Below are positions 982 to 33,331 of a DNA stretch of 33,331 nucleotides, piece by piece; within the stretch, counting starts at the first letter, position 1; every line of letters begins with the position of its first letter. The position numbers and the translations under genes are program-made. Source of the stretch: a virus. Lineage: Duplodnaviria; Heunggongvirae; Uroviricota; Caudoviricetes. The stretch lies in the IMG/VR virus record IMGVR_UViG_2703718780_000026. One strand, 5' to 3'. A model generated the notes under the pieces. It saw only the letters and a list, made by a program, of their open reading frames with translations. It was not told where the DNA came from and did no database searches.

Positions 982-1050
982 AAGAAAGCCCTCTGACGCT
1001 GTATTCACCATCTTGGTAACAAATGGTGAAAATGTAATGTTTATAGAGTG

Positions 1051-1344
1051 TTAACCAGTCTGTTTTTCGGAGTGGTCTGATTCTGTTGGTTTTTGCCCAA
1101 TGTGTGCGAGAGCCGGCGCGATCTGACCAGCTTGTGGTGACGTATCACCAGTCATTAACCAGAGCGTATATTTTTTAAATAAAGGCGTATTTGTGACTCG
1201 CATAACGATGCTGAGACCAGGGTCTTTATGCCCACTTTCGTAATTTTTGACTGTTCCTAGAGCTATCCCGCTAATTTCGCTGAATTTCGCCTGTGTTAAG
1301 CCTTCTGCTTTCCTAATCGCTTTCAGTTTTTCGAATGTCTGCAT
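1051..1344 (-). CDS. C: Immunity repressor C (P2 C-like, HTH)
   Basis: 97-aa ORF divergent from cox. N-terminal HTH-like segment (LTQAKFSEISGIALGTVKNYESG) and C-terminal GQIAPALAH motif as in P2 C (from memory). Position between int and cox. Confidence 0.8.
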   Translation of the reverse strand: MQTFEKLKAIRKAEGLTQAKFSEISGIALGTVKNYESGHKDPGLSIVMRVTNTPLFKKYTLWLMTGDTSPQAGQIAPALAHIGQKPTESDHSEKQTG

Positions 1345-1373
1345 TTGACAGTAACCTATTGGTGACTTATATT
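1345..1373 (+). promoter_or_regulatory. Candidate early promoter Pe (sigma70-like: TTGACA, 17-nt spacer, TATATT) reading into cox
   Basis: TTGACA at 1345-1350 and TATATT at 1368-1373, read directly. Lies in the C/cox divergent intergenic region where P2 has Pe. Confidence 0.55.
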
Positions 1374-1400
1374 CCCGTCAAAAGGTTGTGTATTGGTGAC
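1357..1400. promoter_or_regulatory. Direct repeats TATTGGTGAC x2 (34 bp apart) flanking the Pe -10; candidate C-repressor operator half-sites
   Basis: Identical 10-mers at 1357-1366 and 1391-1400. In P2 the C operator is a pair of direct repeats flanking the -10 of Pe (established knowledge); assignment here is by analogy. Confidence 0.45.
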
Positions 1401-1422
1401 CTTTTGAGTGTGTTAGCCAGTC

Positions 1423-1454
1423 CCTAGAAAGGACAGGGGCGACCTAGAAGGGAC
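1423..1454. promoter_or_regulatory. Direct repeats CCTAGAA(A/G)GGAC x2 (20 bp apart); candidate Cox/Pc regulatory sites
   Basis: 12-mers at 1423-1434 and 1443-1454 differ at one position. Located between Pe and the cox start codon. Confidence 0.35.
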
Positions 1455-1496
1455 TGGATCTAATAAGGGTAACACGAAAGCAAAAAGGGCTAATCA

Positions 1497-1769
1497 ATGG
1501 AAGTCAATGACTATGTGATTCAGTACCCGATTGATGCGGTACATACGGTTAAGTTTGCAGAGTTACTTGGTAAGCCAGAAACGGCTGTAGTCAAGATGGT
1601 AAAAGAGAATAAATTGCCAGTTATTGAGCTTCGTGATCCAAGTAAGCCGAACGCTCGTGTCGGTGAGAAGTGGGTTTTCATTCCAGAGTTTAATCGCGCT
1701 GTACGAGAGGCGTTTTATAACCGACCAGTTGAACAGCGTGATGCATGGCTTTTGTGGATGGGGTTGTGA
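1497..1769 (+). CDS. cox: Cox-like excisionase / Pc repressor
   Basis: 90-aa ORF, first gene of the rightward early operon, divergent from C. Size and position as for P2 Cox (91 aa). Confidence 0.75.
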   Translation: MEVNDYVIQYPIDAVHTVKFAELLGKPETAVVKMVKENKLPVIELRDPSKPNARVGEKWVFIPEFNRAVREAFYNRPVEQRDAWLLWMGL

Positions 1770-5800: not shown

Positions 5801-6252
5801 TGGCAAAAATTCACGAGGTAAAGCTGCACGCAAAATATTTCGACCTTGTACTGGAAGGAAAGAAACGCGCAGAGTTTCGGAAAAATGACCGTAATTATGA
5901 GCGCGGGGACACGTTGATTTTGCATGAATGGGTGCAGGGTGTGTTTACGGGGCGCAAGGTTGAAGCCCGGATAACAGATGTTACTGACCTGTCAGACTGG
6001 CTGGAAGATTATGTCTTGCTAAGTATTGAGCTGCTTAATACGGGCGCATATAAGATTGTGAACTGGAAAGAACTTAGTGAACGTGGTTTGGTATTCAGAA
6101 TTAATCATGAAATTATGCATCAGCTTGGCCTTGCTGTTATGTATGAACCAGAGACAGGGATGTCTGGTGGTGCAATGGTTGCCACGGATGGGATATGGAA
6201 TTATTCAGATGAACAGATGGAGCATGCAAAGCAAAACGGGTGGCTTGGATAA
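5800..6252 (+). CDS. ASCH/DUF3850-like protein (tentative)
   Basis: ATG at 5800 overlaps the A stop (TAATG). N-terminus MAKIHEVKLHAKYFDLVLEGKKRAEFRKNDRNYERGDTLILHEW resembles the DUF3850/ASCH consensus as I remember it; needs an HMM check. Confidence 0.5.
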   Translation: MAKIHEVKLHAKYFDLVLEGKKRAEFRKNDRNYERGDTLILHEWVQGVFTGRKVEARITDVTDLSDWLEDYVLLSIELLNTGAYKIVNWKELSERGLVFRINHEIMHQLGLAVMYEPETGMSGGAMVATDGIWNYSDEQMEHAKQNGWLG

Positions 6253-6458: not shown

Positions 6459-6763
6459 AGAACGCCGCCAGTCGTGAAACTTGTTTTCAGGGCTGGCGGG
6501 GTTGAACAACGAGCGAAGCGAGGCGTTAGTTATGTAAAGTTAAAGTCATTTAAAACAGTACATTAGTGGAAAGGATGTTGAGAGTATTCGGTTACGAGAG
6601 GGAATGGATGTATTTACAGAAATTGTTGGATTAATTGTAGTAAAGCTAGGCTAGGATAAGGCCTTAGGGCTGGATGTGGGGAGCATTCTTGTTGTTTGCT
6701 AAAACGCTCGAGATTTTTGAAGGATACAGTTATACTCTGTCGGAGGATGAATCGGAGACTAAA

Positions 6764-7801
6764 ATGGCGGTAAAAGTTGTTGATCTTTTTTGTGGTGCTG
6801 GCGGGCTTACTCATGGCTTAAAGCAAGCCGGATTAGATGTAGTCGCTGGTATTGATATAGAGAGTGCATGCCGGGTTGCTTATGAAATTAATAACAGTGC
6901 GCTTTTTATTGAAAAAGATATTTCTCTGGTGACCAAAGACGAGCTTAACGATCTTTTTGAAGGTGCGCAGGTAAGGGTGTTGGCTGGTTGTGCGCCGTGC
7001 CAACCTTTTTCAAGGTATACGCAAGGGCGCGATAAGAAAAATGATAAAAAGTGGCCTCTTCTTTATGAATTTGAACGTTTAATTCGAGGGGTTAATCCAG
7101 AGATCGTTACAATGGAAAATGTACCTGATGTAACGAAGCATTCTGTTTATAGTGACTTCTATAATAGTTTAGAGGCATTGGGTTATCATGTCTGGGCCGG
7201 AAAGGTTGAATGTGTAGATTATGGTGTTCCGCAAAATAGAGTTAGGCATGTATTATTGGCATCTAAATTTGCGCCGCTTTCATTTGTAAAACCAAAAGTA
7301 GAAAAGGCGGTGACGGTAAAAGAATGCATTGGCGGACTTCCTCCATTAAAGGCTGGTCAAACGGATCCTGTTGATCCTTTACATAAAGCAAGTAAATTAA
7401 GTGATATAAATCTAAAACGTATTGCTTGCTCTAAACCAGGAGGGACATGGCGAGACTGGCCAGTAGAGTTGATTGCATCATGCCACATAAAGAAAAGTGG
7501 GCAAGGTTATGCTAGTGTATATGGACGTATGGATTGGGATAAACCAAGTCCTACAATTACTACGCTATGTTATGGTTTTGGAAATGGCAGATTTGGTCAT
7601 CCCGAGCAAAATCGTGCAATTTCTCTGAGAGAGGCTGCATTGTTACAAACGTTTCCAAAGGATTACGTTTTTACTGCACCCAATGAGAAAGTATCTATAA
7701 AGAATGTTGGTAGGATGATTGGTAATGCTGTACCGGTAAAACTAGGTGAGGTTATAGGTGAGTCAATTATAACTCACCTAAAAGAGCACAATATAGTTTA
7801 A
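6764..7801 (+). CDS. DNA (cytosine-5) methyltransferase
   Basis: ATG at 6764 with GGAG RBS 6 nt upstream. C5-MTase motifs read in order: I DLFCGAGG, IV PCQPFS, VI ENV, VIII QNRVR, X GNAV. 345 aa. Confidence 0.9.
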   Translation: MAVKVVDLFCGAGGLTHGLKQAGLDVVAGIDIESACRVAYEINNSALFIEKDISLVTKDELNDLFEGAQVRVLAGCAPCQPFSRYTQGRDKKNDKKWPLLYEFERLIRGVNPEIVTMENVPDVTKHSVYSDFYNSLEALGYHVWAGKVECVDYGVPQNRVRHVLLASKFAPLSFVKPKVEKAVTVKECIGGLPPLKAGQTDPVDPLHKASKLSDINLKRIACSKPGGTWRDWPVELIASCHIKKSGQGYASVYGRMDWDKPSPTITTLCYGFGNGRFGHPEQNRAISLREAALLQTFPKDYVFTAPNEKVSIKNVGRMIGNAVPVKLGEVIGESIITHLKEHNIV

Positions 7802-8529
7802 GCCTGTAGTCTTGATGATCGTATGTATAAGCGATCATCAAGGTATTTTTGTATGTTTTCTAGTATTTCTTCTAGGTAATGGAAAACTTCATTTTTAAGA
7901 AGTTCAAGGTTGTCAATAGACGTTTCTTGACCCTTGTTTAAAAAGGATTCTGAACCATGCGCCAATGCATTTCTTGCTTTTTTTATGTTTACTAAATTTC
8001 CACCATTATGAGTTTTTGAACGATCTGTTTGAGAGGAAAAACCATAGATACTAGCAACATCCCTAATTTTCTGTGCGTCAACATTTCCAGAAAATAGGGG
8101 GTTTTTATCTGCTTGAACTTGTTTTTTGTGTTCCTCTAGCCATTTTTTTAGAACTAGTTTTGCTATATCACCTTGTGAAAAATCCATGTCACTCACCATA
8201 TGATGGTCTAATTTTTTTAAGGCAAGCTTTGTTAAGCTTTCGCAAATTTTATCGACACAAAGATCATCACACGAATTAAGTTCATTATGTATATCTTCAA
8301 TAGCATTAGATATAGTGGCTTCAATTAAGTTATATAATATAATAAACGCATTGGCTTTTAGGATATGCGTCATTTCGATATCAATTTCGCGGTGTTTACA
8401 TTCGCCTGCTATGCGATCTTTGTACGAGAATGTTGGTCTCTCATCAATAATGAATTTAACAAAATCAAAATATTTTTCTATATCTTCTTTTCTTTCAGAA
8501 AATAAAATTTTGCTGTTCATGATGACCAC
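7798..8529 (-). CDS. Hypothetical protein with C-terminal HEPN-like R-N-x3-H motif
   Basis: 243 aa from a GTG at 8529 (RBS GAGGAG 10 nt upstream), or 240 aa from the ATG at 8520. KKARNALAHG matches the HEPN Rx4-6H signature. Its stop codon overlaps the MTase stop (7798-7801 shared, convergent). Confidence 0.6.
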   Translation of the reverse strand: MVIMNSKILFSERKEDIEKYFDFVKFIIDERPTFSYKDRIAGECKHREIDIEMTHILKANAFIILYNLIEATISNAIEDIHNELNSCDDLCVDKICESLTKLALKKLDHHMVSDMDFSQGDIAKLVLKKWLEEHKKQVQADKNPLFSGNVDAQKIRDVASIYGFSSQTDRSKTHNGGNLVNIKKARNALAHGSESFLNKGQETSIDNLELLKNEVFHYLEEILENIQKYLDDRLYIRSSRLQA

Positions 8530-8535
8530 GGATAG

Positions 8536-9660
8536 TTACTCCTCACTATCATCTAGAACAGTATCTTCGGTCTGCACACCTAAAAGTTTGTCTCTTACAT
8601 ATTCAATACGTGCTTTTACTTTAGGTTTTGAATTTGATGCATCAGATCTTGTATGTTTAATAAACTCTTCTGAGTTTAACCATTCCTCTACCGGTGTTGG
8701 TATTATGTTAGAGTCAGTTTTTAAGGCCAAAGTGGAACCGACAGCTAACGCTTCAAAGCGAATTCTTGGTACAGTGTTTGCCGTTGCATTCTTTCTGAAA
8801 CCATAGGGGAAATATGTTTTGACAAATTCACACATATCTTGAAATTGTGCAGTTAGTTTTTCTTCTTGCTCAGGACTAAATGACTCATTGCGTTGGTCAA
8901 GATATTGGGTTAAGAAAGTATCAACACTTTTTTCAAAGTTAAGATAGTTATCACAATAGGCAAAATATCTAAGAACCAATTCTGGATATTCTCCACGACT
9001 GATCCTAGCATCGTTTAGAGGGCATATTTCCCTAAACAATGGAAACTCTGATAGTCTATTAACAACATCAAGAAAAGGCCCATCATTACTGCCCTGTCGT
9101 TGCTCCATTGTCGTGAGTTTTATTCCACCTGTATTCAATCGATCGAAAATCTCCCTTCTTGCTTCTTCATCACATAATTCAGTGAGTTCAATCATTCGAA
9201 TAGTTTTTCTATCGAATCTAAGCTTACGTGCAGGTGTGAAGTCAGAGTATTTGAATCCGTTGGCTGAAGTTAGCTTTTTTAATCCAGTAAGGGTAAATTT
9301 ATCATTTAGGAAATGATAAAGTGTTCTAATCCTCTGGCTACCATCAACGATTTCCAATCGCCCATCGTCATTTCCGATATCGGCGACAAATACATATGGG
9401 ATAGGAATATTTAGCAAAAGAGATTCAATGAATCTTGATTTTTGAACATTGCTCCAAACAAATTCCCTTTGATAATCAGGTATGTATAGTTCTGCTTGGT
9501 CGGTTTCTAATCCTTTCTGAAATTTGTCAACAATGACACTTACAGGAAACTCTCTGATTTGGTGATCCGTTATTTTTTGCATGGATTTGATCTGGTTATC
9601 CAGGTCAACTTTATCTTCTTCTGTGATCACTTGTTCAGGTTGTCTTGGGACTCTTGCCAT
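8536..9660 (-). CDS. DUF262 (ParB/Srx-like) domain protein, standalone (no DUF1524/HNH domain)
   Basis: ATG at 9660 with AGGAG RBS; 374 aa. Motifs IPDYQREFVW and DGSQRIRTL (the DGQQR-type signature) plus C-terminal FDRLNTGGIKLT. First gene of a two-gene operon, 6-nt gap to the downstream gene. Confidence 0.75.
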   Translation of the reverse strand: MARVPRQPEQVITEEDKVDLDNQIKSMQKITDHQIREFPVSVIVDKFQKGLETDQAELYIPDYQREFVWSNVQKSRFIESLLLNIPIPYVFVADIGNDDGRLEIVDGSQRIRTLYHFLNDKFTLTGLKKLTSANGFKYSDFTPARKLRFDRKTIRMIELTELCDEEARREIFDRLNTGGIKLTTMEQRQGSNDGPFLDVVNRLSEFPLFREICPLNDARISRGEYPELVLRYFAYCDNYLNFEKSVDTFLTQYLDQRNESFSPEQEEKLTAQFQDMCEFVKTYFPYGFRKNATANTVPRIRFEALAVGSTLALKTDSNIIPTPVEEWLNSEEFIKHTRSDASNSKPKVKARIEYVRDKLLGVQTEDTVLDDSEE

Positions 9661-9681
9661 TTGTTTTCTCCTTATGCTTAT

Positions 9682-9706
9682 TTGCAATAAGTTGCATTTG
9701 TTTGCA
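9682..9706 (-). promoter_or_regulatory. Three TTGCA motifs at 10-bp phasing in the leader of the DUF262 operon (candidate operator)
   Basis: TTGCA at 9682-9686, 9692-9696 and 9702-9706 on the + strand (TGCAA x3 on the coding strand), between the predicted promoter and the start codon. Confidence 0.3.
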
Positions 9707-9723
9707 TGCGTAGTTTTATACTG

Positions 9724-9752
9724 ATTTAATCCCACAAGTCCTTTACATGCAA
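9724..9752 (-). promoter_or_regulatory. Candidate sigma70 promoter for the DUF262/HEPN-like operon (TTGCAT, 17 nt, TTAAAT on the minus strand)
   Basis: Reverse complement of 9747-9752 is TTGCAT; reverse complement of 9724-9729 is TTAAAT; spacer 17 nt. About 60 nt upstream of the ATG at 9660. Confidence 0.35.
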
Positions 9753-9802
9753 GGGTTAGAGGCTTAAATGCACCTGCATTAAAACCGCCCCACGAAGCGG
9801 GC

Positions 9803-9821
9803 GGGCGAGGCGGGGAAAGCA
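9803..9821. other. cos cohesive-end site (P2/P4-type 19-mer GGCGAGGCGGGGAAAGCAC)
   Basis: The 19-mer matches the P2/P4 cohesive-end sequence as I recall it, and the following sequence (CTGCGCGCTG.CGGTGGTGCTGATT...TTTTTTCAGCGTCT) resembles the P4/P2 left end. Located between the cargo and Q, as expected for an integrated P2. Confidence 0.7.
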
Positions 9822-9964
9822 CTGCGCGCTGGCGGTGGTGCTGATTTTATTTTTTCAGCGTCTGAGCGCGTCGTGATAGCGTTTAGATTGTGCGCCGGGG
9901 CGTTGGTTTGTCTGCGGGCTGTTTTGCGCGGTGGTGAGCGTGTGAGGGCGTGATGACGGGGTGT

Positions 9965-19238: not shown

Positions 19239-19874
19239 ATGAACACTCTCGCAAATATTCAGGAACTCGCGCGCGCACTGCGCAACATGATACGCACCGG
19301 CATTGTCGTCGAAACCGACCTTAACGTCGGTCGCTGCCGTGTGCAGACCGGCGGCATGTGCACCGACTGGCTTCAGTGGCTGACCCATCGCGCCGGTCGT
19401 TCGCGCACATGGTGGGCACCTTCCGTGGGGGAACAGGTGCTGATTCTGGCCGTGGGCGGTGAACTCGACACGGCGTTCGTTCTGCCGGGGATTTATTCCG
19501 GCGATAACCCCGCGCCGTCTGCGTCGGCGGATGCCCTGCATATCCGTTTCCCTGACGGAGCGGTGATTGAGTATGAACCTGAAACCAGTGCACTCACGGT
19601 AAGCGGAATTAAAACGGCCAGCGTGACGGCTTCTGATTCTGTTACCGCCACGGTGCCGGTGGTCATGGTGAAAGCATCAACCCGCGTCACCCTGGACACA
19701 CCGGAGGTGGTCTGCACCAACAGGCTGATTACCGGCACGCTGGAAGTACAGAAGGGCGGGACGATGCGCGGCAACATTGAACACACCGGCGGTGAACTCT
19801 CATCAAACGGTAAGGTACTGCATACCCATAAACACCCCGGCGACAGTGGCGGCACAACAGGGGGACCTCTATGA
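19239..19874 (+). CDS. V: Baseplate spike protein V
   Basis: 211 aa, the same as P2 V; synteny. Confidence 0.85.
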   Translation: MNTLANIQELARALRNMIRTGIVVETDLNVGRCRVQTGGMCTDWLQWLTHRAGRSRTWWAPSVGEQVLILAVGGELDTAFVLPGIYSGDNPAPSASADALHIRFPDGAVIEYEPETSALTVSGIKTASVTASDSVTATVPVVMVKASTRVTLDTPEVVCTNRLITGTLEVQKGGTMRGNIEHTGGELSSNGKVLHTHKHPGDSGGTTGGPL

Positions 19875-21664: not shown

Positions 21665-23914
21665 ATGAGCACAAAATTCAGAACCGTTATCACCACTGCC
21701 GGTGCAGCAAAGCTGGCAGCGGCAACCGCACCGGGAGGGCGGAAGGTCAACATTACCACGATGGCCGTCGGGGATGGCGGTGGTAAATTGCCTGTCCCGG
21801 ATGCCGGACAGACCGGGCTTATCCACGAAGTCTGGCGACATGCGCTGAACAAAATCAGCCAGGACAAACGAAACAGTAATTATATTATCGCAGAGCTGGT
21901 TATTCCGCCGGAGGTGGGCGGTTTCTGGATGCGTGAACTTGGCCTGTACGATGATGCGGGAACGCTAATTGCCGTGGCGAACATGGCCGAAAGTTATAAG
22001 CCAGCCCTTGCCGAAGGCTCAGGGCGTTCGCAGACCTGCCGCATGGTCATCATCGTCAGCAGTGTGGCCTCAGTGGATCTGACCATTGACACCACAACGG
22101 TGATGGCGACGCAGGATTACGTTGATGACAAAATTGCAGAGCATGAACAGTCACGACGTCACCCGGACGCTTCTTTGACCGCAAAAGGTTTTACTCAGTT
22201 AAGCAGTGCGACCAACAGCACGTCTGAAACACTCGCCGCAACACCAAAAGCGGTAAAAGCAGCATATGACCTTGCTAACGGGAAATACACTGCACAGGAC
22301 GCCACCACAGCGCGAAAAGGCCTTGTCCAGCTCAGTAGTGCCACCAACAGCACGTCTGAAACGCTCGCCGCAACACCAAAAGCGGTAAAAGCAGCATATG
22401 ACCTTGCTAACGGGAAATACACTGCACAGGATGCCACCACCGCGCGAAAAGGCCTTGTCCAGCTCAGTAGCGCCACCAACAGCGATTCTGAAACGCTTGC
22501 GGCAACGCCAAAGGCGGTAAAGGCAGCGTATGACCTTGCTAACGGGAAATACACTGCACAGGATGCCACCACGGCGCGGAAAGGCCTTGTCCAGCTCAGT
22601 AGCGCCACCAACAGTGATTCTGAAACGCTGGCCGCAACACCAAAAGCGGTGAAGTCTGCCTATGACAATGCTGAAAAACGTCTTCAGAAAGATCAGAACG
22701 GTGCGGATATTCCTGATAAAGGACGCTTCCTGAGTAACATTAATGTTTACAGCAAAGGTGAAGTGGATAAGAAAAAGGGAATGCGAAAGTATTCGTTTGC
22801 AGCCCCTGCAAATGTCGTTGCCGGGAAGTGGTATCCCGTTATCTTTCGCCGTGCTGCCAGCCTTTCAGGAGAAATGGCATCCCGCGTCGTTATTTCCACT
22901 GGTTGTTATAACAGCGATTATGTAATGAATAACTGTGAGTTTAATGGCATGGTTATGCCCGGAGGCTGGACTGATCGTGGTTCTTATGCGGCAGGTTATT
23001 TCTGGACGTATCAGACTAATGAGCGTTCAATCCATTCCATTGTTACAAGCCTGAAAGATGATGATGTATGTAGTGTTTTTTATGTTGAAGCCAGAGCTTT
23101 TCCCGTACAAATTCTTGCAGAGGAAGGGCTAACGGTTATTGTTCCGACAGAGGATTATGTCGTCGGTCAAACGACATATAAGTGGGGGGCAACTAATCCC
23201 GCTACAGAAAGCACGAACGCACAGGCTATTCTGGATTTTAAAAATGGACGTGGTTATTACTGTTCACATCCATTTATTTCCAGCCTTTCAGGAAATGCTG
23301 CAACAGCAACGAAGTTAGCGAACGCAAGAAATATTAATGGTGTCAGATTTGATGGCTCTGCCGATATAAATATTAATACACTGGTATCCAGAAACCGTGT
23401 TACTGCATTAGGTGGGAGCGTAAAGGGGACACCAGGTATTCAGATGTATGAGGCATACAACAATGGCTACCCAACAGCCTATGGTAATGTGCTTCATCTC
23501 ACTGGTGTAACCGCAGTAGGAGAGGGTGAGTTACTTATTGGCTGGAGTGGAACCAGCGGTGCTCATGCTCCGGCATATATTCGCTCCCGACGAGATACCA
23601 CAGATGCTAACTGGTCTGGATGGGCGCAACTATATACAACTGCTCATAAACCCTCAGCGGGAGATGTTGGTGCATACACCAAAGCTGAGTCAGATTCACG
23701 TTATGTGAGAGACATGCGGCTGGGCGGTGCATCTACATATAAACCAGCAAATAATGGTACTACATGGACGCATCAGGCTCCGTCAGGTTGCGTATATACC
23801 GGCATTATTGTTCAGGATACCGGCTCAAACTCTGCCGATAACATTGGTGGCGTATATTACAGACCGGTGCAGAAATACATTAACGGGACATGGTATAACG
23901 TGGCGCAGGTATAA
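21665..23914 (+). CDS. H: Tail fibre protein H, with expanded internal repeats and a divergent C-terminal domain
   Basis: 749 aa (P2 H is 669 aa, from memory). N-terminal region is baseplate-proximal and conserved-looking; central 44-aa repeats; the distal part is AT-richer by eye. Confidence 0.85.
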   Translation: MSTKFRTVITTAGAAKLAAATAPGGRKVNITTMAVGDGGGKLPVPDAGQTGLIHEVWRHALNKISQDKRNSNYIIAELVIPPEVGGFWMRELGLYDDAGTLIAVANMAESYKPALAEGSGRSQTCRMVIIVSSVASVDLTIDTTTVMATQDYVDDKIAEHEQSRRHPDASLTAKGFTQLSSATNSTSETLAATPKAVKAAYDLANGKYTAQDATTARKGLVQLSSATNSTSETLAATPKAVKAAYDLANGKYTAQDATTARKGLVQLSSATNSDSETLAATPKAVKAAYDLANGKYTAQDATTARKGLVQLSSATNSDSETLAATPKAVKSAYDNAEKRLQKDQNGADIPDKGRFLSNINVYSKGEVDKKKGMRKYSFAAPANVVAGKWYPVIFRRAASLSGEMASRVVISTGCYNSDYVMNNCEFNGMVMPGGWTDRGSYAAGYFWTYQTNERSIHSIVTSLKDDDVCSVFYVEARAFPVQILAEEGLTVIVPTEDYVVGQTTYKWGATNPATESTNAQAILDFKNGRGYYCSHPFISSLSGNAATATKLANARNINGVRFDGSADININTLVSRNRVTALGGSVKGTPGIQMYEAYNNGYPTAYGNVLHLTGVTAVGEGELLIGWSGTSGAHAPAYIRSRRDTTDANWSGWAQLYTTAHKPSAGDVGAYTKAESDSRYVRDMRLGGASTYKPANNGTTWTHQAPSGCVYTGIIVQDTGSNSADNIGGVYYRPVQKYINGTWYNVAQV
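22196..22665 (+). repeat. In-frame 132-bp tandem repeat (about 3.5 copies) within H, encoding a 44-aa phage tail-fibre repeat
   Basis: ACCAACAG anchor recurs at 22211, 22343, 22475 and 22607 (period 132). Protein unit SSATNS(T/D)SETLAATPKAVKAAYDLANGKYTAQDATTARKGLVQL. Copies 1-2 carry ACGTCT and copies 3-4 GATTCT (an AABB pattern). Confidence 0.85.
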
Positions 23915-23917
23915 TTT

Positions 23918-24445
23918 ATGCAGCATTTGATAAATATAACGGCAGGTAATCCAAAAACGGTTGAACAATATCAATTGACAAAGGACTTTGATGTTGTCTG
24001 GTTTTTTTCAGAAGATGGTAAGAACTGGTACGAAGAACAAAAGTATTTTGCTGATGACACGATAAAAATAGCGTACGACAAAGATAATATTATCCGCTAT
24101 GTGGAAAAGGATGTGACAGCTATCAGACCAGATGGATTAAGTGTTGTTGAAGTGCCGGATATTACTGCTAATCGACGGGCGGACATTTCAGGGAACTGGA
24201 TGTTTAAGGATGGTACAGTGATTAAACGAATTTATACGGCAGAGGAATTGCAGCAGCAGGCAGAAAATCGGAAAGCCAGACTTCTTGCAGATGCTGAATC
24301 CGTGATTTTGCCGCTGGAGCGCGCGGTCAGACTGAACATGGCAACAGATGAGGAGCGTAGCCGACTGGAAGCATGGGAACGCTACAGCGTTCTGGTCAGT
24401 CGTGTGGATCCTGCAAATCCTGAATGGCCGGAAATGCCGCAATAA
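23918..24445 (+). CDS. G: Tail fibre assembly chaperone G
   Basis: 175 aa, the same as P2 G; immediately follows H. Confidence 0.8.
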
Positions 24446-24666: not shown

Positions 24667-25260
24667 ATGTTTACTAAGCGACGATTAAAAAATATTAACT
24701 GGGAGGCAAGTTCAGTGATTCTTGCTATGGTTCTCTTTGTTGGAAATATATTTTATACAAATCATCGTGATGATATAAGCATGGAGGCTGAGAGGGACAG
24801 TATCAGAACAATGTTTGCATATGAAATCGCTAATAACCATCGCGCTCTCACTTTTCTTGATAAAACGAGACATATTGGCTTTGACGAAAATTCGGAGCAT
24901 TTTGTTGGCGAGCCTTTTGCCATTAATGTCAAATCATTAGGGGGGCCTCGCTTACAGATTGCATTAAACCAGACTGATAAAGTGTTTAAATCCTACTTCA
25001 GCGAATTAAGTAAGCTTGATAAAGAGGATGTTACTCTTCTTATGGACTATTACCATGAGCAAAGCATCCTGCTGGAGCGTGTAAAATCTACGTTACAGAA
25101 GATGAAAAGTGGTAATGATATTAAAGTTGATATTGATGGTTACTTATTAGAAGAACACTTCATGAATGAGCTTAATCTTTCTAATATTTTGCTTAAACGC
25201 TATAGCCATTTGTTGTCACAATACGCTAAAGAACATAAAACAAAAGATTTACATAATTGA
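24667..25260 (+). CDS. Hypothetical membrane-anchored protein (cargo at the Z/fun position)
   Basis: 197 aa; ATG with AAGG RBS; N-terminal hydrophobic helix SSVILAMVLFVGNIFY; strongly AT-rich codon usage unlike the flanking phage genes; sits alone between G and FI. Confidence 0.6.
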   Translation: MFTKRRLKNINWEASSVILAMVLFVGNIFYTNHRDDISMEAERDSIRTMFAYEIANNHRALTFLDKTRHIGFDENSEHFVGEPFAINVKSLGGPRLQIALNQTDKVFKSYFSELSKLDKEDVTLLMDYYHEQSILLERVKSTLQKMKSGNDIKVDIDGYLLEEHFMNELNLSNILLKRYSHLLSQYAKEHKTKDLHN

Positions 25261-26793: not shown

Positions 26794-27312
26794 ATGGCAA
26801 TGCCGCGCAAACTCAAGTTAATGAACGTCTTTCTGAACGGCTACAGCTATCAGGGCGTTGCAAAGTCCGTCACGCTACCAAAACTGACCCGTAAGCTCGA
26901 AAACTATCGCGGTGCGGGGATGAACGGCAGCGCACCGGTAGACCTCGGCCTTGATGACGATGCGCTGTCAATGGAGTGGTCGCTCGGTGGCTTCCCGGAT
27001 TCGGTTATCTGGGAGCTTTACGCCGCAACCGGTGTGGATGCCGTACCGATTCGTTTTGCTGGCTCTTACCAGCGCGACGATACCGGCGAAACGGTGGCCG
27101 TCGAGGTGGTCATGCGTGGACGTCAGAAAGAAATCGACACCGGCGAGGGGAAACAGGGAGAAGACACTGAGTCGAAAATCTCCGTGGTCTGCACCTATTT
27201 CCGGCTGACGATGGACGGTAAGGAGCTGGTCGAAATCGACACCATTAACATGATTGAGAAGGTGAACGGCGTCGACCGGCTGGAGCAACACCGCCGAAAT
27301 ATCGGCCTGTGA
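26794..27312 (+). CDS. FII: Tail tube protein FII
   Basis: 172 aa, the same as P2 FII; AGGAG RBS. Confidence 0.88.
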   Translation: MAMPRKLKLMNVFLNGYSYQGVAKSVTLPKLTRKLENYRGAGMNGSAPVDLGLDDDALSMEWSLGGFPDSVIWELYAATGVDAVPIRFAGSYQRDDTGETVAVEVVMRGRQKEIDTGEGKQGEDTESKISVVCTYFRLTMDGKELVEIDTINMIEKVNGVDRLEQHRRNIGL

Positions 27313-27368
27313 TTTTCATCCGGTCAGCCAGGCTGACCGGTTAACCCTGATTCAGAAGTGAGAAAACC

Positions 27369-27644
27369 ATGAATAAAGAAAATGTCATTACCCTGGAAAA
27401 TCCGGTCAAGCGTGGTGAGCAGGTCATCGAACAGGTCACGCTGATGAAACCCAGTGCCGGGACGCTGCGCGGTGTCAGTCTGGCAGCGGTCGCGAACTCC
27501 GAAGTCGATGCACTGATTAAGGTGCTGCCGCGCATGACGGCACCGATGCTGACCGAGCAGGAGGTCGCCGCACTGGAACTGCCTGACCTTGTGGCGCTGG
27601 CCGGTAAGGTGGTCGGTTTTTTGTCGCCGAACTCGGTGCAGTGA
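27369..27644 (+). CDS. E: Tail assembly chaperone E
   Basis: 91 aa, the same as P2 E; immediately upstream of the tape measure gene. Confidence 0.8.
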   Translation: MNKENVITLENPVKRGEQVIEQVTLMKPSAGTLRGVSLAAVANSEVDALIKVLPRMTAPMLTEQEVAALELPDLVALAGKVVGFLSPNSVQ

Positions 27645-27796
27645 CGTTTCCGAAAAATCTCTCGGTCGATGACCTGATGGCGGATGTGGCAGTGGTATTT
27701 CACTGGCCGCCATCAGAACTGTATCCCATGAGCCTGACCGAACTCATCACATGGCGCGAAAAGGCGCTCAGGCGAAGCGGAAACACGAATGAGTAA
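27369..27796 (+). CDS. E': Tail assembly chaperone E+E' (-1 programmed frameshift product)
   Basis: A T-run slippery site (27617-27622, then G) lies near the E 3' end. The -1 frame is open from the slip site to a TAA at 27794-27796 and overlaps the T start; verified codon by codon. Confidence 0.6.
27617..27623 (+). other. Slippery heptamer T TTT TTG for the E/E' -1 frameshift
   Basis: GGTTTTTTG read at 27615-27623; the P2 E/E' and lambda G/GT arrangement is established knowledge. Confidence 0.6.
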
Positions 27797-30236
27797 CAAT
27801 GTAAAATTACAGGTATTGCTCAGGGCTGTTGACCAGGCATCCCGCCCGTTTAAATCCATCCGCACAGCGAGCAAGTCGCTGTCGGGGGATATCCGGGAAA
27901 CACAAAAATCACTGCGCGAGCTGAACGGTCATGCATCCCGTATTGAGGGATTCCGCAAGACCAGTGCACAGCTCGCCGTGACTGGTCATGCACTTGAAAA
28001 GGCACGGCAGGAGGCCGAAGCCCTTGCCACACAGTTTAAAAACACCGAGCGTCCGACCCGTGCTCAGGCGAAAGTGCTGGAATCCGCAAAGCGAGCAGCG
28101 GAGGACTTACAGGCGAAATATAACCGCCTGACGGATTCCGTTAAACGCCAGCAGCGGGAACTGGCTGCTGTGGGAATTAATACCCGCAATCTTGCACATG
28201 ATGAGCAGGGGCTGAAAAACCGTATCAGTGAAACCACCGCACAGCTTAACCGGCAGCGTGACGCGCTGGCGCGTGTCAGTGCGCAACAGGCAAAACTTAA
28301 CGCAGTCAAACAGCGTTATCAGGCCGGAAAGGAACTGGCCGGAAAAATGGCTTCAGTCGGCGCTGCCGGTGTGGGGATTGCGGCGGCGGGAACGATGGCC
28401 GGAGTTAAGTTGCTGATGCCCGGTTATGAGTTTGCGCAGAAAAACTCAGAATTGCAGGCTGTGCTCGGTGTGGCAAAAGACTCCGCCGAAATGGCCGCGC
28501 TACGCAAGCAGGCGCGCCAGCTCGGCGACAATACCGCAGCCTCGGCAGATGATGCAGCCGGTGCGCAGATTATTATTGCGAAAGCGGGTGGAGATGCTGC
28601 GGCTATTCAGGCGGCAACGCCGGTCACGCTGAATATGGCACTGGCGAATCAGCGGTCGATGGAAGAAAACGCGCAACTGTTGCTGGGGACTAAGGCATCC
28701 TTTCAACTGTCAAATGATGATGTCAGCCATGTGGGCGACGTATTGTCGGCAACGATGAATAAGTCGGCGGCTGATTTTCAGGGACTCAGTGATGCACTGA
28801 CTTACCTCGGGCCGGTTGCGAGGACGGCAGGTGTAAGTCTTGAGCAGGCAGCGGCCATGACAGGTGTGCTGCATGACAATAACATCAGGGGGTCAATGGC
28901 GGGTACGGGTAGCAGTGCCGTTGTCACCCGATTACAGGCACCGACTGGAAAAGCATGGGATGCACTCAAAGAGCTTGGCGTTAAAACCTCGGACAAAAAG
29001 GGAAATATGCGTCCGTTGTTCACCATTCTGAAAGAGATTCAGGCCAGCTTTGATAAACACAAGCTGGGAACGTCTCAGAAGGGGGAATACCTTAAAACCA
29101 TTTTTGGTGAGGAAGCCCTGAAATCAGCGAACGTTTTACTGGCAGCGGCTGCAAGCGGAAAGCTGGATAAGCTGACCGCCACGCTGAAAGCCTCGGACGG
29201 TAAAACGGAAGAGCTGGTTAAAATCATGCAGGATAACCTCGGCGGTGACTTTAAGGCGTTTCAGTCCGCTTATGAGGCGGTGGGGACAGACCTGTTTGAC
29301 CAGCAGGAAGGCGCACTGCGTAAGCTCACGCAGACGGCCACAAAGTATGTGTTAAAACTCGACGGCTGGATACAGAAAAACAAATCACTGGCGTCAACCA
29401 TTGGCCTCATTGCCGGTGGCGCGCTGGCGCTGACTGGCATCATCGGTGCAATTGGTCTTGTAGCCTGGCCGGTTATCACCGGCATCAATGCCATCATCGC
29501 GGCAGCAGGCGCAATGGGGGCAATTTTCACGACGGTTGGCAGTGCTGTTATGACGGCCATCGGGGCGATTAGCTGGCCGGTTGTGGCCGTGGTGGCCGCC
29601 ATTGTCGCCGGGGCGTTACTTATCCGTAAATACTGGGAGCCTGTCAGCGCATTCTTTGGCGGTGTGGTTGAAGGGCTGAAAGCGGCATTTGCGCCGGTGG
29701 GAGAACTGTTCACGCCACTTAAGCCGGTGTTTGACTGGCTGGGTGAAAAGTTACAGGCCGCGTGGCAGTGGTTTAAAAACCTGATTGCCCCGGTCAAAGC
29801 CACCCAGGACTCTCTAAACCGTTGCCGTGACACGGGCGTCATTTTCGGGCAGGCACTGGCTGACGCGCTGATGCTGCCGCTTAATGCGTTCAACAAACTG
29901 CGCAGCGGCATTGACTGGGTACTGGAAAAGCTCGGGGTCATCAACAAAGAGTCAGACACACTTGACCAGACCGCCGCCAGAACTCATACCGCCACATATG
30001 GCACCGGTGGTTATATTCCGGCGACCAGCTCTTATGCAGGCTATCAGGCTTATCAGCCGGTTACGGCACCGGCTGGCCGCTCTTATGTAGACCAGAGTAA
30101 AAACGAATATCACATTAACCTGACGGGTGGTTCTGCGCCGGGAACACAGCTTGACCGCCAGTTACAGGATGCGCTCGAAAAATACGAGCGGGATAAACGT
30201 GCGCGCGCCCGTGCCAGCATGATGCATGACGGTTAA
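27789..30236 (+). CDS. T: Tail tape measure protein T
   Basis: 815 aa, the same as P2 T; Ala/Gly-rich hydrophobic central region. Confidence 0.88.
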   Translation: MSNNVKLQVLLRAVDQASRPFKSIRTASKSLSGDIRETQKSLRELNGHASRIEGFRKTSAQLAVTGHALEKARQEAEALATQFKNTERPTRAQAKVLESAKRAAEDLQAKYNRLTDSVKRQQRELAAVGINTRNLAHDEQGLKNRISETTAQLNRQRDALARVSAQQAKLNAVKQRYQAGKELAGKMASVGAAGVGIAAAGTMAGVKLLMPGYEFAQKNSELQAVLGVAKDSAEMAALRKQARQLGDNTAASADDAAGAQIIIAKAGGDAAAIQAATPVTLNMALANQRSMEENAQLLLGTKASFQLSNDDVSHVGDVLSATMNKSAADFQGLSDALTYLGPVARTAGVSLEQAAAMTGVLHDNNIRGSMAGTGSSAVVTRLQAPTGKAWDALKELGVKTSDKKGNMRPLFTILKEIQASFDKHKLGTSQKGEYLKTIFGEEALKSANVLLAAAASGKLDKLTATLKASDGKTEELVKIMQDNLGGDFKAFQSAYEAVGTDLFDQQEGALRKLTQTATKYVLKLDGWIQKNKSLASTIGLIAGGALALTGIIGAIGLVAWPVITGINAIIAAAGAMGAIFTTVGSAVMTAIGAISWPVVAVVAAIVAGALLIRKYWEPVSAFFGGVVEGLKAAFAPVGELFTPLKPVFDWLGEKLQAAWQWFKNLIAPVKATQDSLNRCRDTGVIFGQALADALMLPLNAFNKLRSGIDWVLEKLGVINKESDTLDQTAARTHTATYGTGGYIPATSSYAGYQAYQPVTAPAGRSYVDQSKNEYHINLTGGSAPGTQLDRQLQDALEKYERDKRARARASMMHDG

Positions 30237-31974: not shown

Positions 31975-32193
31975 ATGTTTCATTGTCCTTTATGCCAGCA
32001 TGCCGCACATGCGCGTACAAGCCGCTATATCACTGACACGACAAAAGAGCGTTATCACCAGTGTCAGAACGTGAATTGCAGCGCCACGTTCATCACTTAT
32101 GAGTCGGTACAGCGATACATCGTGAAGCCGGGAGAAGTCCACGCCGTAAGGCCGCACCCGTTACCATCAGGACAGCAAATTATGTGGATGTGA
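31975..32193 (+). CDS. ogr: Late-gene transcription activator Ogr (C4 zinc finger)
   Basis: ATG at 31975 gives 72 aa (MFHCPLCQHAAHARTSRYITDTTKERYHQCQNVNC...), which matches P2 Ogr as I recall it, with CxxC...CxxxxC. Last phage gene before the host junction. Confidence 0.85.
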   Translation: MFHCPLCQHAAHARTSRYITDTTKERYHQCQNVNCSATFITYESVQRYIVKPGEVHAVRPHPLPSGQQIMWM

Positions 32194-32203
32194 TCACAAA
32201 AAT

Positions 32204-32230
32204 AGCCCCTCAGTTGAGGGGCTTATTTAT
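32204..32230 (+). terminator. Rho-independent terminator after ogr
   Basis: Hairpin AGCCCCTC-agtt-GAGGGGCT followed by a T-rich tract (TATTTAT). Confidence 0.55.
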
Positions 32231-32235
32231 GGTCG

Positions 32236-32254
32236 ATGTGGACGCTATGTGGAC
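32236..32254. promoter_or_regulatory. Tandem direct repeats ATGTGGAC x2 (11-bp phasing); candidate integrase arm-type sites in attR
   Basis: ATGTGGAC at 32236-32243 and 32247-32254, between the ogr terminator and the host gene. P2-type integrases bind direct-repeat arm sites (established knowledge); the assignment here is inference. Confidence 0.3.
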
Positions 32255-32320
32255 AGTGCTTGATATAAATCCTTTTATATCATCAGGTTAGGTGCTTTTT
32301 TGTGACACCATCCCTGTCTT

Positions 32321-32347
32321 CCCCCACATGATGTGGGGGTTTTTTTT
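32321..32347 (+). terminator. Strong hairpin terminator (9-bp perfect stem CCCCCACAT-g-ATGTGGGGG plus T8), probably host-derived or att-core associated
   Basis: Read directly. It is redundant with the ogr terminator, so it probably belongs to the 3' end of the upstream host transcript duplicated or retained at the attachment site. Confidence 0.55.
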
Positions 32348-32428
32348 ATCCTCAATTTGCCTGCTGCTTAATGCATTGCAGATGATTTGCTTCCGTTATA
32401 CTAGCGTCAGTTGATAGCGGGAGTATTT

Positions 32429-33331
32429 ATGAATCAATCTTATGGACGGCTGGTCAGTCGGGCGGCGATTGCTGCGACGGCGATGGCTTCGTTGCTATTG
32501 CTGATTAAAATTTTTGCATGGTGGTATACCGGGTCGGTGAGTATTCTCGCCGCGCTGGTGGATTCGCTGGTGGATATCGGCGCGTCGTTGACGAATTTAC
32601 TGGTGGTGCGATATTCCCTGCAACCTGCCGACGATAATCACTCGTTTGGTCACGGTAAAGCAGAGTCCCTCGCGGCGCTGGCGCAAAGTATGTTTATCTC
32701 CGGTTCGGCACTATTCCTGTTTTTGACGGGTATTCAACATCTGATATCTCCAACACCGATGACAGATCCAGGCGTCGGGGTTATCGTGACAATTGTGGCG
32801 CTAATTTGTACGATTATCCTTGTCTCGTTTCAGCGTTGGGTGGTGCGCCGGACGCAAAGCCAGGCGGTGCGGGCTGATATGCTACATTACCAGTCTGATG
32901 TTATGATGAACGGCGCAATTCTGCTGGCGCTGGGGTTGTCCTGGTACGGCTGGCATCGCGCCGATGCTCTGTTTGCATTGGGAATCGGCATCTATATTTT
33001 ATATAGCGCGTTACGCATGGGATATGAGGCGGTACAGTCATTACTGGATCGCGCATTGCCTGATGAGGAACGGCAAGAAATTATTGATATCGTGACTTCC
33101 TGGCCGGGTGTTAGCGGCGCTCACGATCTTCGCACGCGGCAGTCAGGGCCGACCCGCTTTATTCAGATTCATTTGGAAATGGAAGACTCTCTGCCTTTGG
33201 TTCAGGCACATATGGTGGCGGATCAGGTAGAGCAGGCTATTTTACGGCGTTTTCCGGGATCGGATGTAATTATCCATCAGGACCCCTGTTCCGTCGTACC
33301 CAGGGAGGGTAAACGGTCTATGCTTTCATAA
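32429..33331 (+). CDS. fieF: Cation diffusion facilitator family ferrous-iron/zinc efflux transporter FieF (YiiP)
   Basis: 300 aa starting [51 protein letters not shown], which matches enterobacterial FieF as I recall it; CDF motifs and multiple TM segments. The tracker's start at 32411 is a TTG extension. Confidence 0.9.

What the first reader, a model, noticed from the sequence alone, without database searches (positions are those of the whole stretch)
27369..27796. E/E' -1 programmed frameshift site is conserved and intact
A T-run slippery sequence (27617-27622, followed by G) lies 7 codons before the E stop. The -1 frame is open from this site to a TAA at 27794-27796, overlapping the first codons of tape measure gene T. 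This is the arrangement used by P2 and lambda (G/GT) to make a low-abundance extended tail chaperone. Its conservation argues the prophage tail module is functional.
Basis: partly seen in the sequence, partly recalled or inferred. Interest (0 to 1): 0.4.

Follow-up and report, generated by a model that had tools for sequence, protein, structure and literature searches.

The report
Phage P2 E/E' tail-chaperone frameshift site
This is the well-known programmed -1 ribosomal frameshift site in the tail-chaperone gene pair E/E' of a P2-type prophage of E. coli, intact and nearly identical to that of phage P2 itself, so it is real but ordinary.

Summary
Gene E is 27369-27644 (91 aa). It carries an in-phase T_TTT_TTG heptamer at 27617-27623, seven codons before its stop. 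The -1 frame is open from 27608 to a TAA at 27794-27796, which overlaps the ATG of tape-measure gene T (27789).

The 551-bp region is 97.5% identical to phage P2 (AF063097). That record annotates E, the joined E+E' CDS and a "site of -1 translational frameshift" at the homologous base, and the slip region is identical. The 0-frame product matches Pfam Phage_TAC_7. The -1 tail matches Phage_P2_GpE (E = 5.8e-22).

In 16 diverse relatives, 14 keep an in-phase T_TTT_TTN. The other two carry different slippery heptamers. All 16 keep the -1 extension with a conserved motif. Variable sites downstream of the E stop fall on third positions of the -1 frame. No downstream RNA structure is detectable, as published for P2.

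All P2 morphogenesis genes are full-length in the window. The same segment is present in 1583 of 5426 complete E. coli genomes.

Verdict: already known, low interest. One small open point is an SD-like sequence 4 nt upstream of the heptamer, whose role is untested.

The parts
27369..27644 (+). Gene E, the 0-frame product gpE (91 aa), a tail assembly chaperone
   Evidence: ORF. Pfam PF10109 Phage_TAC_7, E = 2.1e-12. PHROG 103 'tail protein', E = 1.7e-44. 98.9% aa identity to P2 gpE.
27617..27623 (+). Slippery heptamer T_TTT_TTG, in phase with E (P-site TTT 27618-20, A-site TTG 27621-23)
   Evidence: Read directly; phase confirmed. Identical in P2, where the frameshift site is annotated at the homologous position 19684/19685. 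Invariant in 65 distinct close sequences. In-phase T_TTT_TTN in 14 of 16 distant relatives.
27623..27796 (+). E' segment: -1 frame read after the slip (G27623 read twice), 57 codons plus TAA; it forms the C-terminal part of gpE+E' (142 aa in all)
   Evidence: Translation. Pfam PF06528 Phage_P2_GpE, E = 5.8e-22. PHROG 1756, E = 4.7e-26. 12 of 18 variable sites downstream of the E stop fall on codon position 3 of this frame.
27605..27607 (+). TAA in the -1 frame that closes it upstream; the -1 frame reaches back only 37 nt into E
   Evidence: Matches the published description of P2 (PMC3931495).
27605..27613 (+). Shine-Dalgarno-like UAAGGUGGU, 4 nt 5' of the heptamer; candidate modulator, role untested
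   Evidence: Predicted duplex with the 16S 3' end is -12.3 kcal/mol, in the top 1.4% of in-frame 21-nt windows of the late genes. 5% of synonymous resamples are as strong. 11 of 15 relatives have -10 kcal/mol or stronger.
26794..27312 (+). Gene FII (tail tube), upstream neighbour
   Evidence: Pfam PF04985, E = 2.3e-60. 100% aa identity to P2 gpFII.
27789..30236 (+). Gene T (tape measure), downstream neighbour; its first 8 nt overlap the end of E'
   Evidence: Pfam PF10145, E = 2.1e-44. 92% aa identity to P2 gpT over all 815 aa.

Best explanation
The window holds a complete P2-type (Peduovirus) prophage. Positions 27369-27796 are its E/E' tail-chaperone gene pair, within the FI-FII-E-E'-T-U-D late operon.

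Most ribosomes translate E to its TGA and make gpE (91 aa). At T_TTT_TTG (27617-27623) a minority slip back one base. The tRNAs on UUU and UUG re-pair on UUU and UUU. Those ribosomes continue in the -1 frame to TAA 27794-27796 and make gpE+E' (142 aa, junction ...VVGFL-VAELG...).

By analogy with lambda gpG/gpGT, the shared E part binds the tape measure protein gpT. The rare E' tail recruits tail-tube subunits (gpFII). The fixed ratio set by the slip then supports assembly of a tail of correct length, and neither protein stays in the virion.

Shown here: the anatomy, near-identity to the experimentally characterised P2 site, family membership of both halves, deep conservation of heptamer, phase and -1 ORF, and purifying selection on the -1 frame.

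Inferred from the literature: that the fused protein is made, its frequency, and the chaperone mechanism.
For: Anatomy and identity to P2:
- The region is 97.5% identical to P2, and nothing differs from window 27573 to 27694. P2's record annotates E, the joined E+E' CDS ('-1 frameshift; essential tail protein') and the frameshift site at the homologous base.
- Pfam gives TAC_7 on the 0 frame and P2_GpE on the -1 frame. The pair sits between the tube and tape-measure genes.

Conservation:
- tblastn of the fused protein finds 424 phage records. In 401 of them at least 80% of the query is covered, and the listed matches at that coverage are all split into two pieces, as expected for two reading frames.
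- Sixteen diverse loci were examined, from Klebsiella, Salmonella, Yersinia, Burkholderia, Stenotrophomonas, Ralstonia, Zymomonas, Vibrio, Aeromonas, Mannheimia and others. Fourteen have in-phase T_TTT_TTG/T/C. Mannheimia has G_GGA_AAG and E. coli phage 503458 has A_AAT_TTT. All have a -1 extension of 32-56 codons carrying the motif D..ADIA.IFHW.P...EL..WRE.A..RSG.
- In 65 distinct close sequences, 40 of 47 variable sites in the E-only zone lie at position 3 of the E frame. Downstream of the E stop, 12 of 18 lie at position 3 of the -1 frame. The heptamer itself never varies.

Chance control: this is the only 1 of 28 in-phase heptamers whose -1 frame extends past its gene's own stop.

Literature: P2's T6G site yields a 91-aa E and a 142-aa E+E' (PMC3091744; PMC3931495). 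The lambda G/GT mechanism and the 2-3 fold higher P2 efficiency are in PMC5009743.
Against: - Nothing in the sequence contradicts this reading.
- No expression data exist for this prophage.
- In E. coli, ZZN codons of mixed purine/pyrimidine content such as UUG shift less well than UUU or UUC (PMC4066793). No downstream stimulatory structure is detectable (z = +0.58; z between -1.1 and +1.5 in the window and 16 relatives). How the reported efficiency is reached is therefore not explained.
- The primary P2 paper (Christie et al. 2002) could not be read here. Its results are cited second-hand.
Confidence: 0.92

Rival explanations
1. E' is a separate small gene, translated on its own from GTG 27641 as a 51-aa 'GpE family phage tail protein', with no frameshift. 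This is how RefSeq/PGAP annotates it in E. coli genomes.
For: PGAP annotates a separate CDS at the homologous GTG in E. coli strain 5735, and the listed E. coli chromosome hits carry the same product name. An ORF with a GTG start exists at 27641-27796.
Against: - No Shine-Dalgarno sequence precedes GTG 27641; the bases upstream are CGAACTCGGTGCA.
- The literature states that P2 E' lacks an RBS (PMC3931495).
- Conservation in the -1 frame (FF[VA].E.G) begins right at the heptamer, upstream of the GTG. The position of a possible start codon is not conserved among relatives.
- P2's own record annotates the join and calls E+E' essential.
Confidence: 0.03
2. The frame change is made by RNA polymerase slippage on the T6 run (one extra U in a fraction of transcripts), not by the ribosome.
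For: A homopolymeric T6 or T7 run is present in 14 of 16 relatives. An inserted U would give the same frame, with a GFF-VAE junction.
Against: - The run is only 6 nt. From my own knowledge, efficient bacterial transcriptional slippage generally needs longer runs.
- The run sits in the X_XXY_YYZ phase in all 14 relatives that have it. That phase matters for tandem tRNA slippage but not for polymerase slippage, although amino-acid conservation could also fix it.
- Two relatives use non-homopolymeric heptamers (G_GGA_AAG, A_AAT_TTT), which cannot support polymerase slippage.
Confidence: 0.03
3. The T-run with the hairpin just upstream (27596-27617) is an intrinsic terminator or attenuator inside E, and the open -1 frame is incidental.
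For: The pattern scan lists a terminator-like site at 27596-27617 followed by TTTTTG. The 36 nt upstream fold to -14.3 kcal/mol with a hairpin abutting the T-run.
Against: - The stem is weak: 8 pairs, of which 4 are G-C.
- An abutting hairpin is not conserved in relatives.
- Termination here would cut off T, U and D, which are essential genes of the same operon (annotation).
- This reading does not explain the Pfam match of the -1 frame or its codon-position pattern.
Confidence: 0.02
4. The site is an inert relic in a defective prophage. The sequence is kept only by recent descent and no longer does anything.
For: None specific. attL lies outside the window, and no expression data exist.
Against: - All P2 genes for head, lysis, tail, replication and ogr are full-length at 92-100% aa identity, apart from tail-fibre genes H (diverged C-terminal part, still one 749-aa ORF) and G (75%). 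The cos region and late-promoter regions are present.
- Variation among 65 distinct close sequences shows purifying selection in both frames.
Confidence: 0.02

Closest known systems
Bacteriophage P2 genes E and E+E' (GenBank AF063097; Christie et al. 2002, J Bacteriol 184:6522)
   Same: Same gene order (FI-FII-E-E'-T-U-D) and the same lengths: E 276 nt, E+E' span 428 nt. The T_TTT_TTG heptamer and its surroundings are identical, as are the 37-nt overlap and the 8-nt overlap with T.
   Different: 14 substitutions in 551 nt. One amino-acid change in E and one in the E' tail (V for I). The prophage differs from P2 in int, C and cox (43-52% aa identity) and in cargo genes, not in this module.
Phage lambda gpG/gpGT tail assembly chaperones (Levin et al. 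1993; Xu et al. 2004, 2013, 2014)
   Same: Two overlapping ORFs lie between the major tail gene and the tape-measure gene. They are joined by a -1 slip near the end of the first ORF. The short product is abundant and the long one rare, and neither is in the virion (PMC5009743).
   Different: - Lambda's heptamer is G_GGA_AAG (from my own knowledge).
- There is no sequence similarity to lambda G/T (PMC3931495). Only the P2-type Pfam families are hit.
- Lambda's ratio is about 30:1, and P2-type efficiency is 2-3 fold higher.
- The P2 tail is contractile.
E. coli dnaX -1 frameshift
   Same: A -1 tandem slip on a homopolymer-like heptamer, decoded by E. coli ribosomes.
   Different: From my own knowledge, dnaX uses an SD-like element about 10 nt upstream and a downstream hairpin, and its product is shortened. 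Here the SD-like element is 4 nt upstream and no downstream structure is found. The product is lengthened by 51 residues.
P2-like phages of other hosts (KS5/KS14/KL3, Smp131, RE-2010, phiE12-2, VHML)
   Same: Conserved T6G, T7G or T6C site and a -1 E' extension (PMC3091744, PMC3931495).
   Different: Only 37-76% amino-acid identity. The E tail after the slip site varies in length.

Membership tests
P2 gpE / gpE+E' tail assembly chaperone pair | Upstream ORF belongs to the E-type tail assembly chaperone family | tested here: met
   PF10109 Phage_TAC_7, 47.3 bits against a cut-off of 25. 98.9% identical to P2 gpE.
P2 gpE / gpE+E' tail assembly chaperone pair | The -1 ORF belongs to the GpE (E') family | tested here: met
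   PF06528 Phage_P2_GpE, 77.3 bits against a cut-off of 23, covering profile positions 1-36 of 37.
P2 gpE / gpE+E' tail assembly chaperone pair | Located between the tail tube gene and the tape-measure gene, with E' overlapping the start of T | tested here: met
   FII 26794-27312, E 27369-27644, T 27789-30236.
P2 gpE / gpE+E' tail assembly chaperone pair | In-phase T6G slippery heptamer near the 3' end of E; the -1 frame is open from there and lacks its own RBS | tested here: met
   T_TTT_TTG at 27617-27623. The -1 frame is open 27608-27796. No SD precedes GTG 27641.
P2 gpE / gpE+E' tail assembly chaperone pair | The fused 142-aa product is actually made at a set frequency, and both products are essential for tail assembly | not testable with these tools
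   Known for P2 only through its GenBank notes and secondary citations. No data exist for this prophage.
Lambda G/GT-type conserved tail chaperone frameshift (Xu et al. 2004) | Two ORFs between the major tail gene and the tape-measure gene, the second reached by a -1 shift near the end of the first | tested here: met
   This shows a functional analogue; there is no detectable sequence homology to lambda G/T (one search shows only P2-type families; PMC3931495).
dnaX/IS-type stimulated -1 frameshift signal | Downstream stimulatory hairpin or pseudoknot 5-9 nt after the heptamer | tested here: not met
   For 27624-27700, z = +0.58 against shuffles. The window and 16 relatives give z from -1.1 to +1.5 with no common fold. 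There are no Rfam hits above noise.
dnaX/IS-type stimulated -1 frameshift signal | Upstream SD-like element at about 10-14 nt spacing | tested here: not met
   An SD-like UAAGGUGGU exists but ends 4 nt before the heptamer. The optimal spacing is quoted from my own knowledge (Larsen et al. 1994).
Transcriptional slippage site | Long homopolymer run whose reading phase is irrelevant | tested here: not met
   The run is only 6 nt. Its phase is fixed in 14 of 14 relatives that have a T-run, and two relatives use non-homopolymeric heptamers.

The most novel reading that the evidence does not exclude
The Shine-Dalgarno-like UAAGGUGGU at 27605-27613, only 4 nt upstream of the heptamer, could be a conserved stimulator or pausing element. 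[AG]AGGUG occurs at the same place in 9 of 14 T-run relatives read. Such an element might explain how a mediocre heptamer (U_UUU_UUG) with no downstream structure reaches the comparatively high efficiency reported for P2-type phages. It would do so at a spacing different from that of the dnaX paradigm.
Probability: 0.12. Interest if true: 0.3.

Novelty: already known. Interest (0 to 1): 0.06.

Why it matters
It matters little beyond correct annotation. The site is the textbook P2 E/E' recoding signal, and this segment is present in about 29% of complete E. coli genomes.

Two practical points follow.
- RefSeq/PGAP annotates E' as a free-standing 51-aa gene rather than as a frameshift fusion. 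Automated proteomes therefore lack the real 142-aa product.
- An intact site, together with full-length morphogenesis genes, fits an inducible prophage.

The mechanistic question of what stimulates slippage here remains open, but it is not specific to this window.

Tried and rejected
- **Primary P2 paper.** PMC135442 is not held, so I relied on P2's GenBank annotation and three open papers that cite it.
- **Empty searches.** NCBIfam gave no hit for E, E' or the fusion. The PDB sequence search found no relative. Rfam gave only sub-threshold noise. The antisense ORFs 27324-27713, 27341-27703 and 27713-27874 have no Pfam hit and were dismissed.
- **IMG/VR loci.** The 80 loci are 98-100% identical to the query. 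They were useful only for codon-position statistics, not for deep conservation.
- **Scripting errors, corrected.**
  - My first script picked the wrong frame for E in five loci (L005-L008, L013). I redid these with the annotated starts.
  - One locus (L022) looked like a truncated E'. It contains an ambiguous base, so I excluded it.
- **Downstream stimulatory structure.** None was found. A 10-bp inverted repeat at 27673-82 / 27707-16 starts about 50 nt after the heptamer. I judge that too far to act on a ribosome at the slip site, and I did not test it for covariation.
- **Terminator-like hit on the T-run.** Rejected as a functional terminator, because the hairpin is not conserved.
- **Upstream SD-like element.** It is stronger than most synonymous recodings, but single-locus fractions are 0.02-0.9. 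The loci are related, and I applied E. coli codon usage to non-enteric phages. The result is suggestive only.
- **U_UUU_UUG efficiency.** The paper's text gives no figure for this heptamer.

Full report
**1. Observation**

- An ORF runs from ATG 27369 to TGA 27642-27644 and encodes 91 aa.
- A run of six T lies at 27617-27622, followed by G at 27623.
- In the frame of that ORF the codons read GGT TTT TTG. The run is therefore in the phase T_TTT_TTG required for tandem -1 slippage. TTG is codon 85 and the stop is codon 92.
- The -1 frame is closed by TAA at 27605-27607. It is then open from 27608 to TAA 27794-27796, 50 codons beyond the E stop.
- The 815-aa ORF that follows starts at ATG 27789, so the -1 ORF overlaps it by 8 nt.

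I tested whether this could arise by chance.
- Across 31 plausible genes of the window there are 28 in-phase X_XXY_YYZ heptamers.
- In 27 of them the -1 frame ends inside the gene. Only this one runs past the gene's own stop.
- Only 2.9% of 9209 codon positions have 57 or more open -1 codons downstream.

**2. What it is**

The 551 bases at 27300-27850 match 74 phage records at 95-99% identity. Phage P2 itself (AF063097) is among them at 97.5%. That record annotates the following:
- gene E at 19430-19705;
- a joined CDS "E+E'" at 19430-19857, noted as [quoted passage not shown];
- a misc_feature "site of -1 translational frameshift" at 19685.

With the offset of 7939 between the two sequences, that position falls at window 27623/27624, the end of the heptamer. 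The pairwise alignment has 14 substitutions and no gaps, and nothing differs between window 27573 and 27694.

The family matches agree with this placement.
- The 0-frame product matches Pfam PF10109 (Phage_TAC_7, "tail assembly chaperone proteins E, or 41 or 14"), E = 2.1e-12.
- The -1 tail matches PF06528 (Phage_P2_GpE), E = 5.8e-22, over almost the whole profile.
- The neighbours are a tail sheath gene, a tail tube gene (PF04985) and a tape measure gene (PF10145).
- PHROGs gives "tail protein" families for both halves.

**3. Context**

I translated every P2 CDS and searched it against the window.
- Q, P, O, N, M, L, X, Y, K, lysA/B/C, R, S, V, W, J, I, FI, FII, E, T, U, D, ogr, B and A are all full-length at 92-100% aa identity.
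- Tail fibre H has a diverged C-terminal part, and G is 75% identical.
- int, C and cox are only 43-52% identical.
- orf30, fun(Z), tin and old are absent and replaced by other genes.
- The cos region and the late promoter regions are present.

The window is therefore a complete P2-type prophage. Its ogr end abuts the host gene fieF. The E/E' segment occurs in 1583 of 5426 complete E. coli genomes.

**4. Conservation**

tblastn with the fused 142-aa product finds 424 phage records. In 401 of them at least 80% of the query is covered, and the listed matches at that coverage are all split into two pieces, as expected for two reading frames.

I fetched 16 diverse loci with 34-76% aa identity. Their hosts are Klebsiella, Salmonella, Yersinia, Burkholderia, Stenotrophomonas, Ralstonia, Zymomonas, Vibrio, Aeromonas, Mannheimia, E. 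coli and a phage recorded as from Bacillus. I analysed frames and heptamers in each.
- Fourteen carry T_TTT_TTG, T_TTT_TTT or T_TTT_TTC in phase near the 3' end of E.
- The Mannheimia phage carries G_GGA_AAG, and its record notes a slippery sequence at that position.
- E. coli phage 503458 carries A_AAT_TTT.
- In all 16 the -1 frame is open for 32-56 codons past the E stop. It encodes the motif D..ADIA.IFHW.P...EL..WRE.A..RSG.
- In most of them, conservation in the -1 frame (FF[VA].E.G) starts at the heptamer.

Among 65 distinct close sequences (80 IMG/VR loci plus P2 and the window), the variable sites follow codon position.
- In the E-only zone, 40 of 47 fall on codon position 3 of the E frame.
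- Downstream of the E stop, 12 of 18 fall on position 3 of the -1 frame and only 3 on position 3 of the 0 frame.
- The heptamer itself never varies.

The -1 frame is therefore the translated and selected frame.

**5. Mechanism**

The best-supported account is -1 programmed ribosomal frameshifting. With tRNA-Phe on UUU in the P site and tRNA-Leu on UUG in the A site, both slip back one base onto UUU UUU. Reading resumes at GUC (27623-27625). The product is a 142-aa protein with junction ...VVGFL-VAELG..., which is how P2's record joins the CDS.

The functional model comes from lambda gpG/gpGT as summarised in PMC5009743.
- The common N-terminal part binds the tape measure protein.
- The rare -1 domain binds the major tail-tube subunit and starts its polymerisation.
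- The ratio of the two products matters for assembly.
- Neither product stays in the virion.

That review states that lambda's ratio is 30:1 and that P2-type efficiency is 2-3 fold higher. From memory, Christie et al. 2002 reported about 10%; I could not read that paper here.

No downstream stimulatory structure is detectable.
- 27624-27700 folds no better than shuffles (z = +0.58).
- The window and the 16 relatives give z from -1.1 to +1.5 with no shared fold.
- Rfam finds nothing.

This agrees with published statements for P2 and for the Burkholderia phages (PMC3091744).

Systematic measurements in E. coli show that ZZN codons of mixed purine/pyrimidine content, such as UUG, are poorer shifters than UUU or UUC. 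Heptamers without stimulators give low values (PMC4066793). What raises efficiency here remains unexplained.

One candidate is the SD-like UAAGGUGGU at 27605-27613.
- Its predicted duplex with the 16S 3' end is -12.3 kcal/mol, in the top 1.4% of in-frame windows of the late genes.
- 5% of synonymous recodings are as strong.
- 11 of 15 relatives have -10 kcal/mol or stronger.
- Against it: it ends only 4 nt before the heptamer, far from the roughly 10-14 nt optimum known for dnaX (own knowledge). The same bases also encode conserved K/E-V residues, and the loci are not independent.

I treat this as an untested lead.

**6. Rivals**

- **Independent initiation of E' at GTG 27641.** PGAP annotates it this way. 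The reading is disfavoured: there is no SD, conservation begins upstream of that GTG, and P2's record annotates the join and calls E+E' essential.
- **Transcriptional slippage on T6.** The run is short, its phase is fixed, and two relatives use non-homopolymeric heptamers.
- **Intrinsic terminator.** A terminator-like pattern covers the T-run. Its stem is weak and not conserved, and termination there would cut off essential downstream genes.
- **Relic in a dead prophage.** This does not fit the full-length gene set or the selection pattern.

**7. Comparison and novelty**

This is a member of the P2 E/E+E' family. Every sequence-level defining feature was tested and met. Only expression and essentiality could not be tested. 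It works like lambda G/GT but is not detectably homologous to it. It does not fit the dnaX type of stimulated signal.

Nothing here is new. The site is annotated in GenBank and has been described repeatedly. Its last inference, that the tail module is functional, rests more on the intact gene set I checked than on this site alone.

Interest is low. The residual value is an annotation point (the fused product is missing from RefSeq annotation of this segment, as seen in strain 5735) and the minor open question of the stimulator.

Noticed in passing
window 6674-9822: The P2 tin/old locus is replaced by three cargo genes. These are a C5 cytosine DNA methylase (6674-7801 +, PF00145, E = 3e-54), a HEPN MAE_28990-like protein (7798-8529 -, PF18737, E = 1e-19) and a GmrSD_N/DUF262 protein (8536-9822 -). 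The last hits PADLOC NsnA (E = 2.7e-55) and PD-T4-2_A (E = 6.6e-34). This looks like an anti-phage defence cassette in a known P2 variable region.
   Followed up: partly
window 24667-25260 (+): The P2 fun(Z) locus between G and FI is replaced by a 197-aa ORF with no Pfam or PADLOC hit. Its function is unknown, and its position suggests another cargo or defence gene.
   Followed up: partly
window 27320-27340: A perfect inverted repeat, CCGGTCAGCC-A-GGCTGACCGG, lies in the FII-E intergenic space. P2 differs there at two positions: the loop base, and one arm base that changes an A-U pair to G-U. A second small terminator-like hairpin sits at 27293-27306, at the end of FII. Together they may act as an attenuator lowering E-T-U-D expression relative to the sheath and tube genes. 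A Mannheimia relative has an annotated terminator at the same place.
   Followed up: no
window 27673-27682 / 27707-27716: A 10-bp perfect inverted repeat (CTGATGGCGG ... CCGCCATCAG) lies inside E'. It drives a z-score of -2.48 for the 131-nt fold. It starts about 50 nt after the slip site, which I judge too far for a classical stimulator. I did not test it for covariation.
   Followed up: no
window 1-1769 and 32190-33331: Integrase, repressor C and Cox are only 43-52% identical to P2, which implies a different immunity and attachment site. The prophage's ogr end abuts the host gene fieF. The same ogr-fieF junction is covered at 80% or more in 692 complete E. coli genomes.
   Followed up: partly
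window 21665-24445: Tail fibre gene H encodes 749 aa against 669 in P2. Its first 251 residues are conserved, residues 168-251 of P2 H match a second time (22430-22681), and the C-terminal part is diverged. The fibre assembly gene G is 75% identical. This implies a host-range module different from P2's.
   Followed up: no
window 5764-6252 (+): Downstream of gene A, the P2 orf91 region diverges after 75 residues. A 162-aa ORF there carries ASCH/DUF3850 and DUF7415 domains.
   Followed up: no
L099 (E. coli strain 5735, NZ_CP154887) 642-797: RefSeq/PGAP annotates E' as a stand-alone 51-aa CDS, 'GpE family phage tail protein', starting at the GTG. It is not joined to E by a frameshift, so the true 142-aa product is missing from this annotation. 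The 12 listed E. coli hits carry the same two product names.
   Followed up: yes
L013 (OR820920, 'Bacillus phage vB_BpuM-ZY1'): A Peduoviridae genome recorded with Bacillus pumilus as host carries a typical P2-type E/E' site (T_TTT_TTG), 45% identical to the window's product. The host assignment looks doubtful for a P2-like phage.
   Followed up: no
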